Shown: positions 48,136-54,817 of the stretch, in pieces
Layout of the letters: each line of letters starts with the position of its first letter
How positions within the stretch are numbered: the stretch's first letter is position 1
From: Escherichia phage vB_EcoM_JN03
Reading direction: 5' to 3' (one strand)
Length of the DNA stretch: 64,000 nt
Sequence record: OR885871
Position numbers and translations under genes: made by a program
The notes under the pieces: model-generated
The model's input: only the letters and a program-made list of their open reading frames with translations
Told to the model about the DNA's origin: nothing
Databases searched by the model: none

Positions 48136-48777
48136 ATGGCTACTTCAAAATATTTCAACTATACAGCACATCAAGGTACTCAAAAATTAATTGATGACTT
48201 GGTGGTCGAGATGATACAATTGCGTGGGATTGACGTCAAGTATATCCCACGTTCTATTGTTGAAAAATACCCAATTTTAAACGAGGCCGAACACAAATTC
48301 GACCAAGCGTTTGACATCGAAGTGTATATGCAGGATTATCAAGGCTTCAACACACAGATGTGGGAAAAGTTCGGCGGTATCCAATTACAAGATGAAGTGA
48401 CCTTCACTATTGCTCGTCGTCGTTTTTCAGAAGTTATTGGTAATGGTCCAGGCCTTGAACAAATGCCTCAAGAAGGTGATTTGATATATCTGCCTATGGC
48501 TAACAAAATATTTAAAGTGAATAACCCGAACAACGATGAAGAATTCATGCAATTTGGGAAATGGTACACATATTCCCTACCATGTACGTTGTTCCAATAC
48601 GGTAACGAAGATTTCGATACAGGTGTATCTGAAATAGACGATATCGATAAACGATTGCAGGATCTGGAAGGAGACGGTGTGTACAAAGACGCCAGCCTGC
48701 AAACGGATAACCAATTTGCGGACGAAATAGAGAAAGATCTTTCGCCCAATAAAATGAAGATAGACTTCGGGGAATAA
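48136..48777 (+). CDS. 14: neck protein (T4 gp14-like)
   Basis: EGDLIYLPMANKIFKV matches T4 gp14 EGDLIYFPMDNSLFEI. Confidence 0.6.
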   Translation: MATSKYFNYTAHQGTQKLIDDLVVEMIQLRGIDVKYIPRSIVEKYPILNEAEHKFDQAFDIEVYMQDYQGFNTQMWEKFGGIQLQDEVTFTIARRRFSEVIGNGPGLEQMPQEGDLIYLPMANKIFKVNNPNNDEEFMQFGKWYTYSLPCTLFQYGNEDFDTGVSEIDDIDKRLQDLEGDGVYKDASLQTDNQFADEIEKDLSPNKMKIDFGE

Positions 48778-48779
48778 TC

Positions 48780-49478
48780 ATGGCCAGACCATTTGAAAAA
48801 TATTTCTACCATGAATCGTTGTTGAAATATATCCATGTTTTCAACGCTATCATGTCGGATTTAAAAGTCAAAACCGAACGTGGCTTGATGGAAATCCCGC
48901 TGCATATGGCCATTGGCCGCCGTAATGACCTCAACAGGAACGTGCCAGCCAATATGCTGCCATTTGCAACAATGTCCTTTGGTCAGTTCGAAATCAATAA
49001 ACAGGTGACCAAGTCGTATCATAATCAGATATCGACTGCAACTGCGCGGTCCAAACAACGAATTCCGATCATTATAGATTTTGAATATAACATCAGAACG
49101 AAGAAACTGGTCGAAATGCTACAGGTGTTGGAACAAATTTATTCTGTGTTCACTCCTTCTGTTGACTGTCAGATAAAGGACAACGACACTTTATCTCAAG
49201 ATCAGAACGTGAAGATAATGTTGGTAAATCACACGATTTCTGACAACTGGGAAGGAGACGCAACAGAATCACCACACATAGATTGTTCATTCAATTTTCA
49301 ATTACATGGTCACATCTATGGAGAAGATTATTGGGTTGATGATGGTTCGGGCGGTGGGGATCCAAACGTCATCAAAGAGATAATTATTGAAATGTCTAAT
49401 GATTTGAACATGCCATGGTCGGAACTTCCTGAATGGTTCCGAGTTGATAAAGACGGCATACATCATCCGGAGGATTGA
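48780..49478 (+). CDS. 15: tail sheath stabiliser / tail completion protein (T4 gp15-like)
   Basis: Position after gp14 and before terminase; weak N-terminal similarity to T4 gp15. Confidence 0.5.
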   Translation: MARPFEKYFYHESLLKYIHVFNAIMSDLKVKTERGLMEIPLHMAIGRRNDLNRNVPANMLPFATMSFGQFEINKQVTKSYHNQISTATARSKQRIPIIIDFEYNIRTKKLVEMLQVLEQIYSVFTPSVDCQIKDNDTLSQDQNVKIMLVNHTISDNWEGDATESPHIDCSFNFQLHGHIYGEDYWVDDGSGGGDPNVIKEIIIEMSNDLNMPWSELPEWFRVDKDGIHHPED

Positions 49479-49480
49479 TC

Positions 49481-50161
49481 ATGAGCAATATGTCAGAAAG
49501 GTTACTCGCCACACTTGATGCGGTGACTGCCCGAGACGAAGTTGGGAAGGAGGCAATGGAGGCTGTCGCCCCTCGTCCAGGTATTGACTTCGATGAAAAT
49601 ACAGGTGAATGGTTTGGTGAACGTCCGGAAGGGTATCAGCCGATTCCTGAACCGCCTTCATTGGAGGATATTGCTTCCAAGGAATCCAAAGTACCTGAGT
49701 TTGCGGACACTGATGCTACAACGGATTACAAACGGATACGCGACACAACATATGCCATGCAAGAAGCCACAATGTTCATGATGGGACAAGCCGCTAAATT
49801 GGCTGCATCCACAGAAGCTCCGCGAGCATTTTCTGTTTTCCGTGAATTGGGTGAACTCATGCGAGGTCTGAATAAAGACTTGATGGAAAACCAGAAAACC
49901 ATCAAGGCAGTAACAGGTGATAAAGAACCACCTGTTGATGACACGACAGTGGATGTTACAACTTCACCAGACGGAACAACAACAGTATCGGTTGGGAAAA
50001 AGGCGCGATCTTCTCGCGATTTATTGAAGACGATCGAAGATGCACGCCGCCGCGCTGAAGAAAGAGCACAAGCAAAGGCCGCACAACAACCAGAAGATGA
50101 AATCATTGATGGTGAAACAGTTGATGTGAAGGAAGAAGACGATGGCGTATCAGAAGCGTGA
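49481..50161 (+). CDS. 16: terminase small subunit (T4 gp16-like), by position
   Basis: GGAGGA RBS; gene immediately upstream of and overlapping the large terminase; acidic C-terminus. Confidence 0.45.
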   Translation: MSNMSERLLATLDAVTARDEVGKEAMEAVAPRPGIDFDENTGEWFGERPEGYQPIPEPPSLEDIASKESKVPEFADTDATTDYKRIRDTTYAMQEATMFMMGQAAKLAASTEAPRAFSVFRELGELMRGLNKDLMENQKTIKAVTGDKEPPVDDTTVDVTTSPDGTTTVSVGKKARSSRDLLKTIEDARRRAEERAQAKAAQQPEDEIIDGETVDVKEEDDGVSEA

Positions 50162-52352
50162 TATAGAATATGCCCCAATTAAAACGGGGTTCAAAATAGA
50201 CGATGTGAAATTGCGTATGGACCAAACGTTCATGCGCAAACCTTCTGTGCGTGCTCCTCGAGTCGAGTTAATGCTGACAGATGAACAAGAAGACGAATTC
50301 GTTGAATGTTCTATGGATGCACACTACTTCGCCGCCAACTATTACAAGATAACCACGATCGATAAGGGCTTTATCCTTTTCGATATGCATGATTATCAGA
50401 AGCAGTTGTTCCACGACTTTCAGGACTATCGATTCAATGCGGTCGTCCAGGCTCGTCAGTCCGGTAAATGCGTCCGTGGTGATACTCTTGTTTATGTCTA
50501 TGATACAATCAGTCAACAAGAGTTGCATCTCACCATAGAAGAGCTTCACAAGCGCTTCGAAGGACCGAACCATGCTGTGCCACTGAATACCATTGGCAAC
50601 CACAATAAGTTTGTAGACAGCCGTTTCGGGAAACGATATTTTGTTGAGTCCGACACTGGCTGGGTTCCGGTTATTGCCGCTCATAAAACGAAAGAATACG
50701 CTGAATACGTTGTCAGGACTGAAACCGGACGCACAATTCATGTCGCAGATGAGCACATGTTCTTCAATGAATATGGGCGCGAAGTATTTGCTAAAGACAT
50801 GGAGGCCGGAGATGCCATAATGACCCAGGAGGGAATAGAATTCATCTCTGAGATCTGGGAGACTGGTGAGTACCACCACATGTATGACTTGCAAGTCAAG
50901 TCCAGCGATCAACGTTATTACACGAATGGGTTCCTCAGCCATAATACCACGGTCGTGGCTGCGTTTCTTCTTTGGTATGCGATGTTCCACTCAGACAAAG
51001 AAATCGCGGTACTGGCAAACAAAGAGAAACAAGCGATTGAAATTCTTGACCGTATCAGGAAGGCGTATCAGGACCTCCCATTCTTCCTTCAGCAGGGTTG
51101 TGAGAAGTTTGGTTCTACCCTGATAGAGTTTGAGAATGGTTCTAAGATATACGCTTATGCCACGTCTTCGGACTCCATCCGTGGTCGTTCTGTATCGCTC
51201 TTGTACGTTGACGAAGTCGCGTTTATCGAAAACGACTTTGAATTTTGGGAATCAACTTTCCCAGCCATTGCATCTGCCGATACATCACGCTGTATTTTGA
51301 CAAGTACTCCGAAAGGCCAGCGAGGGTTGTTCTATGATATTGTCACCAAAGCAGATCCGCGCCATCCACAATACAACGACTTCCACCTAACTGAAGTCCC
51401 ATGGTATAAGGTTCCGGCATATACCAAAGATCCAGATTGGGAAACCAAACAACGTGCCCGTCTGGGGGATGCTCGTTTCGATCAAGAATTTGGCATTAAG
51501 TTCCGTGGTTCCGTGGGTTCATTGATTCCGGCCAAATGCTTAGATAAAATGACGTCCAAGTTATATCGGGAACCTAATGAATTCACCAAGATTTATAAGG
51601 AATACGACCCACAACGTCTCTACTTTGGGATTGCGGACACTGGGAAGGGGGTGGAAGGAGATTATTCCGTCTTAACAATTCTGGATATAACTGAATATCC
51701 GCATGTTATAGCAGCCAAGTACAGGAATAACACGATACCTCCTATGATGTATGCATACACGATAGCTGATATGTGCACCGAATACGGGGAATGCCCTGTC
51801 CTTGTTGAAACAAACAACGACGTCGGCGGTCAGGTTATTACAATTCTTTATCAAGAGATAGAATATCCAGAAATCATATTCACATCAACAGATAACAAAG
51901 GGACGGGGAAACGGATTGGTGGACGTAAACCGGAACCTGGTATCAATACCAACAGAAAAGTCCGATCTATCGGTTGTGCTAACCTGAAAGCGCTCATTGA
52001 GAAAGAAATGTTGGTGATAGAAGACCAGGACACGATAGATGAACTCAGTACATTTGTGTTCAAAGGCGCTCGGTATGAAGCCGATGACGGTTGTCACGAT
52101 GACTGTGTCATGCCGTTGGTCTTATATTCTTGGGCAGTTAAACAAGAATGGTTCAGTGATTTGACATCTACAAGTATTTCTCAGGACATGAGAAACCGAA
52201 TGTCTTCAACTGAATCTCAGCAGGTATTCCCATTTGGTGGTTTAGTCGTTGGAGACACCCCATCCGAAACTGAGCATTTGCCTGGTTTCGGGGGTATTCA
52301 AGTTTTCAACGAAATGTCAGGGATGACCATGGATGAGTGGTTTAAGAATTGA
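50142..52352 (+). CDS. 17: terminase large subunit (T4 gp17-like), interrupted by a mini-intein
   Basis: 736 aa; Walker A reads QARQSGK / C...intein...N / TTVVAAF, i.e. ARQSGKTT once the insert is removed. Confidence 0.85.
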   Translation: MAYQKRDIEYAPIKTGFKIDDVKLRMDQTFMRKPSVRAPRVELMLTDEQEDEFVECSMDAHYFAANYYKITTIDKGFILFDMHDYQKQLFHDFQDYRFNAVVQARQSGKCVRGDTLVYVYDTISQQELHLTIEELHKRFEGPNHAVPLNTIGNHNKFVDSRFGKRYFVESDTGWVPVIAAHKTKEYAEYVVRTETGRTIHVADEHMFFNEYGREVFAKDMEAGDAIMTQEGIEFISEIWETGEYHHMYDLQVKSSDQRYYTNGFLSHNTTVVAAFLLWYAMFHSDKEIAVLANKEKQAIEILDRIRKAYQDLPFFLQQGCEKFGSTLIEFENGSKIYAYATSSDSIRGRSVSLLYVDEVAFIENDFEFWESTFPAIASADTSRCILTSTPKGQRGLFYDIVTKADPRHPQYNDFHLTEVPWYKVPAYTKDPDWETKQRARLGDARFDQEFGIKFRGSVGSLIPAKCLDKMTSKLYREPNEFTKIYKEYDPQRLYFGIADTGKGVEGDYSVLTILDITEYPHVIAAKYRNNTIPPMMYAYTIADMCTEYGECPVLVETNNDVGGQVITILYQEIEYPEIIFTSTDNKGTGKRIGGRKPEPGINTNRKVRSIGCANLKALIEKEMLVIEDQDTIDELSTFVFKGARYEADDGCHDDCVMPLVLYSWAVKQEWFSDLTSTSISQDMRNRMSSTESQQVFPFGGLVVGDTPSETEHLPGFGGIQVFNEMSGMTMDEWFKN
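50469..50945 (+). mobile_element. mini-intein (159 aa) in the terminase large subunit P-loop
   Basis: Begins with Cys after SGK, block B-like TGRTIHVADEH, ends FLSHN followed by Thr; in-frame; no homing endonuclease domain. Confidence 0.75.
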
Positions 52353-54358: not shown

Positions 54359-54817
54359 ATGATATACGCATACAAAATTGAAACGATAACTAATGGAAAG
54401 GTCTACATCGGTGTGACCAATGACCCACAACGAAGATATGATCAGCATTTTGCGAATGCTTTTCATCATGGAGTCCAAAGTGAATTGTATGATGCCATGC
54501 GTAAGTATGGAACATCTGGATTTACTTTCGTTGTAATTGCTCAGACCGATGAAGTCCATAAATGGGAATTAGAGAAGCAACTCATCGCTCAATATAATTC
54601 TTATGAGATGGGTTACAACATGAATAAAGGCGGTAATGATGGAAGTCATATGCTGGGTAAAACTGCAGCAAAATTGACATCCACAGGTGAACACATTGGT
54701 CTTGTTTCTCTCATAGATCCCCGTTGGGAATTGTGTGAAATCGAACCCGTTTTAAGCAATGTTGACCACGGATTTGATTTTTCTTCCATGAAGATTAAAA
54801 GATTGACGACTAATTAG
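54359..54817 (+). CDS. GIY-YIG homing endonuclease (free-standing, 152 aa, possibly truncated)
   Basis: N-terminal MIYAYKIETITNGKVYIGVT...RRYDQH; inserted between sheath and tube genes. Confidence 0.6.
   Translation: MIYAYKIETITNGKVYIGVTNDPQRRYDQHFANAFHHGVQSELYDAMRKYGTSGFTFVVIAQTDEVHKWELEKQLIAQYNSYEMGYNMNKGGNDGSHMLGKTAAKLTSTGEHIGLVSLIDPRWELCEIEPVLSNVDHGFDFSSMKIKRLTTN

What the first reader, a model, noticed from the sequence alone, without database searches (positions are those of the whole stretch)
50469..50945. Mini-intein splitting the Walker A P-loop of the terminase large subunit
The terminase ORF reads QARQSGK, then a 159-aa insert beginning with Cys and ending SHN, then TTVVAAF. Removing the insert restores a contiguous P-loop ARQSGKTT. 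The insert has a block B-like TGRTIHVADEH and is too short for a homing endonuclease domain, so it looks like a self-splicing mini-intein at the ATPase active site. Packaging would then depend on protein splicing.
Basis: partly seen in the sequence, partly recalled or inferred. Interest (0 to 1): 0.75.

Follow-up and report, generated by a model that had tools for sequence, protein, structure and literature searches.

The report
Known mini-intein in phage terminase P-loop
The DNA-packaging enzyme gene of this phage (Escherichia phage FEC14) carries a small self-excising protein insert (an intein) in its ATP-binding loop; the reading is correct, but the same element was reported in sister phages in 2013.

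Summary
The window is Escherichia phage FEC14 (Kuttervirus, Ackermannviridae). Its gp17-like large terminase ORF (50142-52352, 736 aa) has a 159-aa insert (50469-50945) between Lys109 and Thr269. The insert starts with Cys and ends His-Asn, and Thr follows it. With the insert removed, the protein aligns end to end with T4 gp17 (E 1e-76) and has a continuous Walker A, RQSGK-TT. Syntenic relatives without the intein read exactly RQSGKTTVVAAFLLWYA. An AlphaFold model of the insert (pLDDT 95.9) matches only solved inteins among its top 50 PDB hits. All class-1 catalytic residues are invariant across 21 diverged inteins at this site. There is no endonuclease domain.

It is not new. The same intein (99-100% identical, same boundaries) is annotated in phages Maynard, Marshall, Mooltan and Magnus, and was published from 2013. 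The Lys|Thr P-loop position is described as a "classic" intein site.

Two small additions come from this work. First, FEC14 carries one of two intein alleles (72.5% nt identity) on a backbone otherwise about 99% identical to CBA120, in a recombinant patch of about 0.65 kb. Second, in published virion mass spectrometry of a sister phage, all four "terminase" spectra lie inside the intein. Splicing itself was not tested here.

The parts
50142..52352 (+). terL precursor gene (gp17-like large terminase, 736 aa, 84.8 kDa including the intein)
   Evidence: ORF. It is 100% identical to the FEC14 CDS ATW66774.1. Pfam Terminase_6N covers residues 269-460 and Terminase_6C covers 498-656.
50142..50468 (+). 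N-extein (aa 1-109), ending in the first half of Walker A, ...ARQSGK
   Evidence: It aligns with T4 gp17 up to the ...SRQLGK motif.
50469..50945 (+). Class-1 mini-intein, 159 aa, 18.6 kDa (TerL aa 110-268)
   Evidence: Boundaries are identical to the 'intein' mat_peptide of Mooltan and Magnus. It is 99% identical to the RefSeq 'intein' YP_008772116.1. AlphaFold2 pLDDT is 95.9 and the top 50 Foldseek PDB hits are all inteins.
50469..50492 (+). Block A (CVRGDTLV). Cys1 is the N-terminal nucleophile.
   Evidence: C1 is invariant and T6 is conserved in at least 90% of the 21 aligned inteins at this site. TIGR01445 intein_Nterm matches insert residues 1-99.
50727..50765 (+). Block B (GRTIHVADEHMFF). 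His96 is the conserved block-B histidine; the usual Thr is replaced by an invariant Ala93.
   Evidence: A93, D94 and H96 are invariant. The block aligns with gp41-1 block B.
50874..50903 (+). Block F (HHMYDLQVKS) with invariant Asp140
   Evidence: M138 and D140 are invariant. The block aligns with the 'vYDLqV' block of the CDC21 and CatC inteins.
50916..50945 (+). Block G (YYTNGFLSHN), with penultimate His158 and terminal Asn159
   Evidence: T152, L156, S157, H158 and N159 are invariant. TIGR01443 intein_Cterm matches at this position, although below its cut-off.
50946..52349 (+). C-extein (aa 269-736). It starts with Thr+1, which is both the splice nucleophile and the Walker A Thr. It holds the rest of the ATPase domain and the nuclease domain.
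   Evidence: Relatives without the intein read K|TTVVAAFLLWYA.
50454..51118 (+). Recombinant patch: intein allele A plus co-transferred flanks (at most 15 nt on the 5' side, 130-170 nt on the 3' side) in a backbone otherwise like CBA120
   Evidence: In this tract, 146 of 148 informative sites are Mooltan-type, 1 is CBA120-type and 1 matches neither. In the N-extein upstream of the tract, 33 of 34 informative sites are CBA120-type, as is nearly all of the C-extein beyond 51118. A Fisher test on approximate counts gives p of about 8e-84.
49475..50161 (+). terS (gp16-like small terminase). It overlaps the terL start, and no homing-endonuclease gene lies between them in this phage.
   Evidence: By contrast, Aglimvirinae have an HNH/NUMOD3 gene at this position.

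Best explanation
The insert is a canonical class-1 mini-intein, a HINT splicing domain with no homing endonuclease. It lies between the invariant Lys and Thr of the Walker A P-loop of a T4 gp17-type large terminase. The gene is translated as an 84.8-kDa precursor in which the ATP-binding loop is broken.

The inferred mechanism is the established class-1 pathway. Cys110 makes a thioester with Lys109 by an N-S acyl shift, helped by block-B His96. The hydroxyl of Thr269 attacks this thioester to form a branched ester. Asn268 then cyclises, helped by His267 and block-F Asp, and releases the 18.6-kDa intein. An O-N shift leaves a normal Lys109-Thr269 peptide bond, giving a 66.2-kDa terminase with the intact loop RQSGKTT.

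The anatomy, fold, catalytic residues and precise empty-site homologues are shown here. The chemistry, and the requirement of splicing for packaging, are inferred. At the DNA level the element has no nuclease of its own. It appears in all 258 records that matched the terL query, in six Ackermannviridae lineages (Kuttervirus, Taipeivirus, Limestonevirus, Agtrevirus, Miltonvirus and an unassigned Aglimvirinae phage). Between lineages it is reshuffled by homologous recombination. FEC14 itself carries intein allele A on a backbone that elsewhere carries allele B.
For: The coordinates and junction residues are exact.

The extein-only protein aligns with T4 gp17 structures 3ezk/3cpe at E 1e-76, and the alignment runs uninterrupted through 'arqsgkttvvaafl' against 'srqlgkttvvaifl'.

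Relatives without the intein have 75-85% extein identity, lie in the same gp13-gp19 gene order, and read RQSGK|TTVVAAFLLWYA.

The AlphaFold2 model has pLDDT 95.9 and pTM 0.88. The top 50 Foldseek PDB hits are all inteins or related HINT domains: VidaL at E 9e-11 with TM 0.83, plus RadA, gp41-1, NpuDnaB and RecA.

Sequence hits go to the gp41-1, CDC21 and CatC inteins. TIGR01445 scores 25.4 against a cut-off of 24.5.

C1, H96, D140, H158, N159 and Thr+1 are invariant in 21 inteins that are 30-79% identical.

Purifying selection acts on the insert: pN 0.09-0.15 against pS 0.74-0.77 versus Magnus and CBA120.

Identical 'intein' annotations and published statements exist for sister phages.

In CsCl-purified virions of the sister phage Sajous1, all 4 spectra assigned to TerL lie in the intein. 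That is 3 of 5 detectable intein peptides and 0 of 26 extein peptides, which suggests the intein exists apart from the exteins.
Against: No splicing experiment exists for this intein or any Ackermannviridae homologue in the literature I could search.

Pfam Intein_splicing scores 33.9 bits against a gathering threshold of 35.8. TIGR01443 intein_Cterm scores 11.9-13.4 against a cut-off of 15.6.

The block-B Thr of the usual TxxH motif is Ala in this whole family, so N-terminal activation may differ in detail.

The mass-spectrometry evidence is only four spectra from one study. It was not designed for this question and is compatible with contamination.
Confidence: 0.93

Rival explanations
1. The insert is a degenerate, non-splicing HINT domain that stays in the mature terminase as an extra domain.
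For: No splicing data exist. Pfam and TIGR01443 scores are slightly below their curated cut-offs. The block-B Thr is replaced by Ala.
Against: The insert separates the Walker A Lys from the Thr that directly follows it in T4 gp17 and in all intein-free homologues. Every residue needed for splicing is invariant over 21 sequences down to 30% identity, which would not be expected if chemistry had been lost. Virion mass spectrometry finds intein peptides without extein peptides.
Confidence: 0.02
2. The insert is a cleavage-only element, like a bacterial intein-like domain. It cuts itself out but does not ligate, so the terminase works as two non-covalently associated fragments.
For: In-silico data and intein-only peptides cannot tell ligation from double cleavage.
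Against: Thr+1 is strictly kept as a nucleophile, and Cys1 and His-Asn are canonical. The structural matches are dominated by true splicing inteins. A P-loop broken between Lys and Thr is unlikely to bind ATP, which is an inference from P-loop NTPase knowledge. Mycobacteriophage TerL inteins tested in a reporter gave mainly ligated product (PMC5050341).
Confidence: 0.02
3. It is the same intein, but retained because splicing is conditional. Redox state, temperature or a substrate would trigger it, so that it acts as a post-translational switch timing terminase activation rather than being purely selfish.
For: All 258 records that matched the terL query carry the intein, although it has no endonuclease, and 255 of them cover at least 80% of the gene. 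The insert is under strong purifying selection. The location in an ATPase active site is the kind proposed in the literature to allow regulation (PMC5050341).
Against: Intein-free syntenic relatives exist and are presumably functional. Retention is also explained by the lethality of any imprecise deletion in the P-loop. This allele has only one Cys in the intein, so no obvious intein-internal disulphide trap is possible. There is no experimental hint.
Confidence: 0.12

Closest known systems
TerL intein of Salmonella phages Maynard, Marshall and Mooltan, and of Klebsiella phage Magnus (Ackermannviridae)
   Same: It is the same element. The length is 159 aa and the boundaries are the same. Protein identity is 99-100% for Maynard, Marshall and Mooltan and 84% for Magnus. 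The host gene and gene order are the same. It was published as 'large terminase interrupted by an intein'.
   Different: The FEC14 GenBank record itself does not annotate it. FEC14 combines this intein allele with a CBA120-type extein backbone.
Mycobacteriophage TerL1-a intein, the 'classic P-loop' insertion (Kelley et al. 2016, PMC5050341)
   Same: [quoted passage not shown] The paper likewise infers that splicing is needed to build the active site.
   Different: The host is a different terminase family (Terminase_1, not the T4-type Terminase_6). There is no detectable close sequence relationship. Related TerL1-b and TerL1-c inteins in that study carry active endonucleases, and this one has none.
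Solved mini-inteins: VidaL (6vgv), cyanophage-like gp41-1 (6qaz), Pho RadA (4e2t), Npu DnaB (4o1r)
   Same: They share the HINT fold, with TM-scores of 0.7-0.83. They share Cys/Ser1, the block-B His, and the terminal His-Asn.
   Different: Sequence identity is only 15-22%. They sit in other host proteins. This family has Ala in place of the block-B Thr.
TerL inteins of Campylobacter phages CP21 and vB_CcoM-IBB_35, Vibrio phage VP-1 and Salicola phage SCTP-2
   Same: They are related inteins (33-40% identity over the C-terminal 70%) in gp17-type terminase P-loops. The VP-1 intein is at the identical K|T site.
   Different: The CP21 intein sits three residues earlier (PRQ|C...HN|SSKSTT). The terL genes of VP-1 and SCTP-2 are additionally broken by other elements.

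Membership tests
Intein (class 1, mini-intein) | In-frame insertion at a conserved site of a host protein, with homologues that lack it and are contiguous across the site | tested here: met
   T4 gp17 aligns across the junction. P0015-P0019 and about 50 others read RQxGK|T... directly. Syntenic loci without the intein are L008-L010.
Intein (class 1, mini-intein) | HINT fold | tested here: met
   The AlphaFold2 model has pLDDT 95.9. The top 50 Foldseek PDB hits are all inteins or related HINT domains, with a best E of 9e-11. This rests on a predicted structure, not a solved one.
Intein (class 1, mini-intein) | N-terminal nucleophile (Cys/Ser/Thr at position 1) | tested here: met
   Cys110 of TerL is invariant in the 21 aligned inteins and is the first residue after Lys in all 35 insert-bearing homologues.
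Intein (class 1, mini-intein) | Block B TxxH motif | tested here: inconclusive
   His96 is invariant, but the Thr position is an invariant Ala (ADxH) in this family. The His is the more conserved residue of the motif (own knowledge). The effect of Ala is untested.
Intein (class 1, mini-intein) | Block F Asp, and block G penultimate His plus terminal Asn | tested here: met
   D140, H158 and N159 are invariant.
Intein (class 1, mini-intein) | +1 extein nucleophile (Cys/Ser/Thr) | tested here: met
   Thr269 is present in all 29 delimited homologues.
Intein (class 1, mini-intein) | Curated profile thresholds | tested here: inconclusive
   TIGR01445 intein_Nterm scores 25.4 against a cut-off of 24.5 for the insert alone, but 20.7 in the full precursor. 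TIGR01443 intein_Cterm scores 11.9-13.4 against 15.6. Pfam PF14890 scores 33.9 against 35.8, E 3.5e-8.
Intein (class 1, mini-intein) | Absence of a homing-endonuclease domain (this defines 'mini') | tested here: met
   The insert is 159 aa and forms a single compact domain in the model. No LAGLIDADG, HNH or GIY-YIG hit was found.
Intein (class 1, mini-intein) | Demonstrated protein splicing (excision plus ligation) | not testable with these tools
   Support is indirect only. Intein-only peptides were seen in Sajous1 virion mass spectrometry. No splicing assay was found in the literature searched.
Class 3 intein | No position-1 nucleophile, a block-F Cys, and the WCT triplet | tested here: not met
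   Cys1 is present. The catalytic block-F position is Asp. The single Cys in the intein is C1.
T4 gp17-type large terminase (host protein) | An N-terminal ATPase with Walker A SRQxGKT and a C-terminal RNaseH-like nuclease | tested here: met
   Matches to 3ezk/3cpe at E 1e-76 over residues 28-516 of the spliced sequence. Pfam Terminase_6N and Terminase_6C both match.

The most novel reading that the evidence does not exclude
The mini-intein has no endonuclease, yet it may not be merely inherited. It may be actively exchanged as a cassette among co-infecting Kuttervirus lineages, helped by a trans-acting free-standing nuclease. That would be an intein version of 'collaborative homing' or localized marker exclusion.

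The hints are these. Allele A is at least 98.7% identical at the nucleotide level across extein backgrounds that differ by about 11-13% (dS about 0.7-0.9). Four phages share a 5' breakpoint 4-16 nt before the intein but have different 3' breakpoints. Aglimvirinae keep an HNH/NUMOD3 endonuclease gene directly upstream of terL. A second unexcluded oddity is that the excised intein may be physically associated with virions.
Probability: 0.12. Interest if true: 0.55.

Novelty: already known. Interest (0 to 1): 0.2.

Why it matters
For annotation, the FEC14 record and most Ackermannviridae records label this gene simply as terminase, or even as "pretoxin HINT domain protein" or "hypothetical protein". 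They should carry an intein mat_peptide, and TerL-based phylogenies and clustering should use the spliced sequence.

For biology, it is one more case of an intein sitting in the catalytic loop of an essential phage ATPase. Virion production must therefore depend on a protein-splicing step. This is a potential control point, and a compact (159 aa) Cys1/Thr+1 intein may be of biotechnological interest.

The allele-swap pattern offers a tractable natural system for asking how inteins without endonucleases spread. That part remains a lead, not a result.

Tried and rejected
**Group I intron or other RNA element instead of a protein-level insert.** An Rfam scan of 50000-51400 at E up to 1 found nothing relevant. 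The reading frame is continuous and under purifying selection.

**Antisense ORF 50268-50990 (240 aa) as a hidden endonuclease gene.** It is open only in FEC14 and has 1-3 stops in all six relatives checked. It is spurious.

**Foreign-composition test.** Intein GC is 46.1%, against 44.6% for the exteins and 44.5% for the window. There is no anomaly.

**Protein-database search with the intein alone.** It returned only two entries, because the word index favours full-length matches. The full-length query was needed.

**A homologue of the Aglimvirinae HNH/NUMOD3 endonuclease in the window.** tblastn found none.

**An endonuclease domain in the 443-451-aa versions at the same site (P0083, P0111).** Pfam found no endonuclease hit. 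The extra roughly 280 aa are low-complexity-looking and unexplained.

**Mention of the terminase or HINT protein in the phiD3 proteome paper.** There is none.
Full report
**Identity of the window and the gene**

[quoted passage not shown] It lies in a T4-like gene order, gp13-gp14-gp15-gp16(terS)-gp17(terL)-gp18-gp19. The FEC14 record does not mention an intein.

**The observation**

The ORF encodes 736 aa. Translation and coordinate arithmetic confirm every detail of the finding:
- Residues 103-109 are QARQSGK.
- Residue 110 is Cys, encoded from nt 50469.
- The insert ends SHN at residue 268 (nt 50945).
- TTVVAAF follows.

The insert is 159 aa (18.6 kDa). The precursor is 84.8 kDa and the insert-free protein is 577 aa (66.2 kDa).

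**Does removal restore a terminase?**

Yes. The 577-aa extein-only sequence matches T4 gp17 structures 3ezk and 3cpe at E 1.4e-76 over residues 28-516. The alignment runs without a gap through the junction: "vvqarqsgkttvvaafllw" against T4 "nlsrqlgkttvvaiflah". The insert therefore lies between the Lys and Thr of the gp17 Walker A motif SRQLGKT.

An independent test used a database search with the full precursor, which returned 817 homologues, of which 120 were listed. Those with a recognisable RQxGK loop continue in one of two ways. About 52 continue directly with T(T/A/Q). The other 35 continue with Cys, and in the 29 whose 3' boundary could be delimited the insert is 150-451 aa and ends ...SHN|TT.

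Five uncultured relatives (P0015-P0019) have 75-85% extein identity and read RQSGK|TTVVAAFLLWYA, exactly the predicted ligated sequence. Two of them were traced to contigs with the same gp13-gp19 synteny. Their DNA is colinear with the FEC14 exteins across the empty site.

**Is the insert an intein?**

Sequence profiles give a consistent but borderline answer:

| Profile | Score (bits) | Cut-off (bits) | Note |
|---|---|---|---|
| Pfam Intein_splicing PF14890 | 33.9 | 35.8 | E 3.5e-8 |
| NCBIfam TIGR01445 intein_Nterm | 25.4 | 24.5 | insert alone, residues 1-99 |
| NCBIfam TIGR01443 intein_Cterm | 11.9-13.4 | 15.6 | matches the correct last 21 residues |

phmmer against PDB sequences finds the gp41-1, CDC21, engineered CatC and VidaL inteins at E 8e-4 to 2e-2, and blocks B, F and G are aligned.

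The structural evidence is clear. I aligned 21 inteins taken from this same site (30-79% identical to FEC14; alignment A1). AlphaFold2 on that alignment gave a single, mostly beta domain with mean pLDDT 95.9 and pTM 0.88. Foldseek against the PDB returned only inteins or related HINT domains in the top 50. These include VidaL (E 9e-11, TM 0.83), the RadA branched intermediate, PhoCDC21-1, RecA, gp41-1, NpuDnaB and a TFIIB mini-intein.

The invariant columns in A1 are the catalytic set of a class-1 intein:
- Cys1.
- Block-B His96, inside an invariant A93-D94-x-H96. The usual Thr of TxxH is Ala throughout this family.
- Block-F Asp140.
- Ser157-His158-Asn159.
- Thr+1.

No endonuclease domain is present. 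Class 3 is excluded, because Cys1 is present and the only Cys in the intein is C1.

The insert is under purifying selection. Against Magnus, pN is 0.09 and pS is 0.74. Against CBA120, pN is 0.15 and pS is 0.77. Its GC content (46.1%) is like that of its surroundings.

**Mechanism (inferred from the established class-1 pathway)**

1. An N-S acyl shift at Cys110 forms a thioester with Lys109.
2. Thr269 attacks the thioester and forms a branched ester.
3. Asn268 cyclises and releases the intein.
4. An O-N shift produces the Lys109-Thr269 peptide bond and thus the intact P-loop.

Because Lys and Thr are adjacent in all intein-free homologues, an unspliced precursor should be unable to bind or hydrolyse ATP, so packaging should depend on splicing. 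This step is inference. No splicing experiment on this intein family was found.

**Indirect proteomic evidence**

A 2024 paper reported LC-MS/MS of CsCl-purified virions of phage Sajous1 and never mentions inteins (PMC10892097). The three peptides identified there have the same sequences in the FEC14 intein. Its Table S3 lists four spectra assigned to TerL: EYAEYVVR, (R)FEGPNHAVPLNTIGNHNK (twice) and YFVESDTGWVPVIAAHK.

All four map to intein residues 30-83. They represent 3 of the 5 readily detectable tryptic peptides of the intein and none of the 26 from the exteins. Under uniform sampling of an intact precursor, the probability is about 0.004.

This is what one would expect if the intein is excised and persists as a separate, stable protein, while mature TerL leaves the capsid after packaging as in T4. 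With four spectra it is only a hint, and it may reflect contamination.

**Prior knowledge**

The element is already described.
- Genome announcements for Salmonella phages Maynard and Marshall (2013) state that "the large terminase ... is interrupted by an intein", based on InterPro Hint and splice-site hits.
- Mooltan and Magnus (2019) say the same.
- Their GenBank records carry an "intein" mat_peptide with exactly the boundaries proposed here.
- RefSeq holds the 159-aa "intein" YP_008772116.1 at 99% identity.
- Kelley et al. (2016) call an insertion between the invariant Lys and the nucleophilic Thr of a terminase P-loop the "classic" P-loop intein position. They showed that other mycobacteriophage TerL inteins splice in a reporter.

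Most other Ackermannviridae records leave it unannotated or mislabel the gene, for example "pretoxin HINT domain protein" in phiD3.

**Distribution**

- All 258 phage-collection records that match terL carry the insert, and 255 of them cover at least 80% of the gene.
- tblastn with the intein finds 320 records.
- A junction-spanning probe hits Ackermannviridae as two pieces 477 nt apart, and the nearest intein-free isolates (Vibrio phages such as GR28A) as one piece.
- The intein therefore appears fixed among sequenced isolates of the family, while empty-site relatives exist in metagenomes.

**Extra finding: the intein is a recombination cassette**

Within Kuttervirus there are two intein alleles:
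- Allele A: FEC14, SFP10, Se-J, SeKF_19, Mooltan, pertopsoe.
- Allele B: CBA120, PhiSH19, Mutine, phage 38.

They are 72.5% identical in nucleotides and 78.6% in protein. Within each allele, identity is at least 98.7%. The alleles do not track the exteins:

| FEC14 compared with | Extein nt identity | Extein dS | Intein nt identity | Intein dS |
|---|---|---|---|---|
| CBA120 | 98.4-99.4% | 0.03-0.08 | 72.5% | saturated |
| Mooltan | about 89% | 0.7-0.9 | 99.6% | 0.01 |

Site-by-site analysis used 341 informative positions in terL. FEC14 is CBA120-like everywhere except one tract. That tract starts between 50453 and 50465 and ends between 51077 and 51119. It covers the intein, at most 15 nt of 5' extein, and 130-170 nt of 3' extein. 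A Fisher test on approximate counts gives p of about 8e-84.

SFP10, Se-J and SeKF_19 share the same 5' breakpoint but have different 3' ends:

| Phage | 3' breakpoint |
|---|---|
| SeKF_19 | within the 3'-terminal part of the intein (upstream of 50945) |
| Se-J | 51008-51038 |
| FEC14 | 51077-51119 |
| SFP10 | beyond about 51221 |

The A-B distance is as large as the extein distance between subfamilies (about 75%). At least one allele was therefore probably imported from outside the genus.

Caution is needed. Other a/b patches unrelated to the intein occur in terL of PhiSH19, Mutine, SeKF_19 and pertopsoe, so general mosaic recombination is common here. The shared 5' breakpoint may simply reflect one ancestral recombinant. 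A nuclease-assisted process is not shown.

The nearest free-standing endonuclease gene in FEC14 is a GIY-YIG ORF 3.4 kb downstream. The HNH/NUMOD3 gene that sits directly upstream of terL in Aglimvirinae has no homologue in this window.

**Verdict**

The element is a typical class-1 mini-intein at a classic P-loop site and is already described in sister phages. Interest is low. The allele-exchange pattern and the intein-only virion peptides are modest new leads.

Noticed in passing
window 54359-54817 (+): A free-standing GIY-YIG homing-endonuclease ORF (152 aa, Pfam GIY-YIG E 2.5e-11) lies between the tail sheath (gp18) and tail tube (gp19) genes. The FEC14 record annotates it only as 'hypothetical protein'.
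   Followed up: partly
window 48769-49268 (gp15 region): A second divergent patch (about 30 mismatches in 500 nt) interrupts the otherwise near-identical FEC14/CBA120 alignment. This shows that patchy mosaic recombination is general in this module and not specific to the intein.
   Followed up: no
L005 809-1687 (Dickeya phage phiD3); L007 809-1687 (Salmonella phage SKML-39): Aglimvirinae carry an HNH/NUMOD3 homing-endonuclease gene wedged between terS and terL, about 320 nt upstream of the intein site. The arrangement resembles 'collaborative homing' of endonuclease-less introns. It is absent from FEC14 and has no homologue in the window.
   Followed up: partly
PMC10892097 Table S3 (Sajous1 virion mass spectrometry); the peptides map to window 50556-50717: All four spectra the authors assigned to the large terminase lie inside the intein and none lie in the exteins. 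The paper does not mention the intein. A free intein may co-purify with virions.
   Followed up: partly
P0084 (Vibrio phage VP-1 TerL), P0054, P0080, P0112: These terL ORFs have a GIY-YIG domain (residues about 500-590) fused after the ATPase domain, where the nuclease domain should begin. terL there seems to be split by an inserted endonuclease gene, in addition to the P-loop intein in three of the four.
   Followed up: no
L021 892-1785 (Salicola phage SCTP-2 gene 267): The annotated 'terminase large subunit' ORF starts inside the intein, with only the C-terminal 115 or so intein residues followed by HN|TAVAALYLLWYAMF, and with stop codons upstream. It ends shortly after 'LLY|CLDGETTVKL', which looks like a second intein start in Walker B. 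This may be a split intein or a heavily fragmented terL.
   Followed up: no
L020 1438-2709 (Pseudomonas phage Cassandra, 'UvsX-like recombinase'): The ORF begins with a C-terminal intein portion related to the FEC14 intein (...HRYYGDGFSSHN|SGKSYIV), so it sits in the RecA-type P-loop. An annotated homing-endonuclease gene follows it. The N-terminal part of UvsX was not located.
   Followed up: no
L019 394-1605 (Campylobacter phage CP21 gene 125): A related TerL intein sits three residues earlier in the P-loop (PRQ|C...SHN|SSKSTT). The ORF ends with '...FSC|CLENTRVQV...', which looks like the start of a second intein.
   Followed up: no
P0083 and P0111 (metagenomic TerL, 983 and 1010 aa): The inteins at the same K|T site are 443-451 aa. 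The extra roughly 280 aa are Ser/Arg/Asn/Gln-rich, look low-complexity, and have no Pfam endonuclease match. They might be a mis-called frame or an unrecognised domain.
   Followed up: no
window 50268-50990 (-): A 240-aa antisense ORF spans the intein region. It is open only in FEC14 and has 1-3 stops in six relatives, so it is almost certainly not a gene.
   Followed up: yes
window 22664-23962 (-): A cluster of four tRNA genes: Ser-GCT, Gln-TTG, Asn-GTT and Met-CAT.
   Followed up: no
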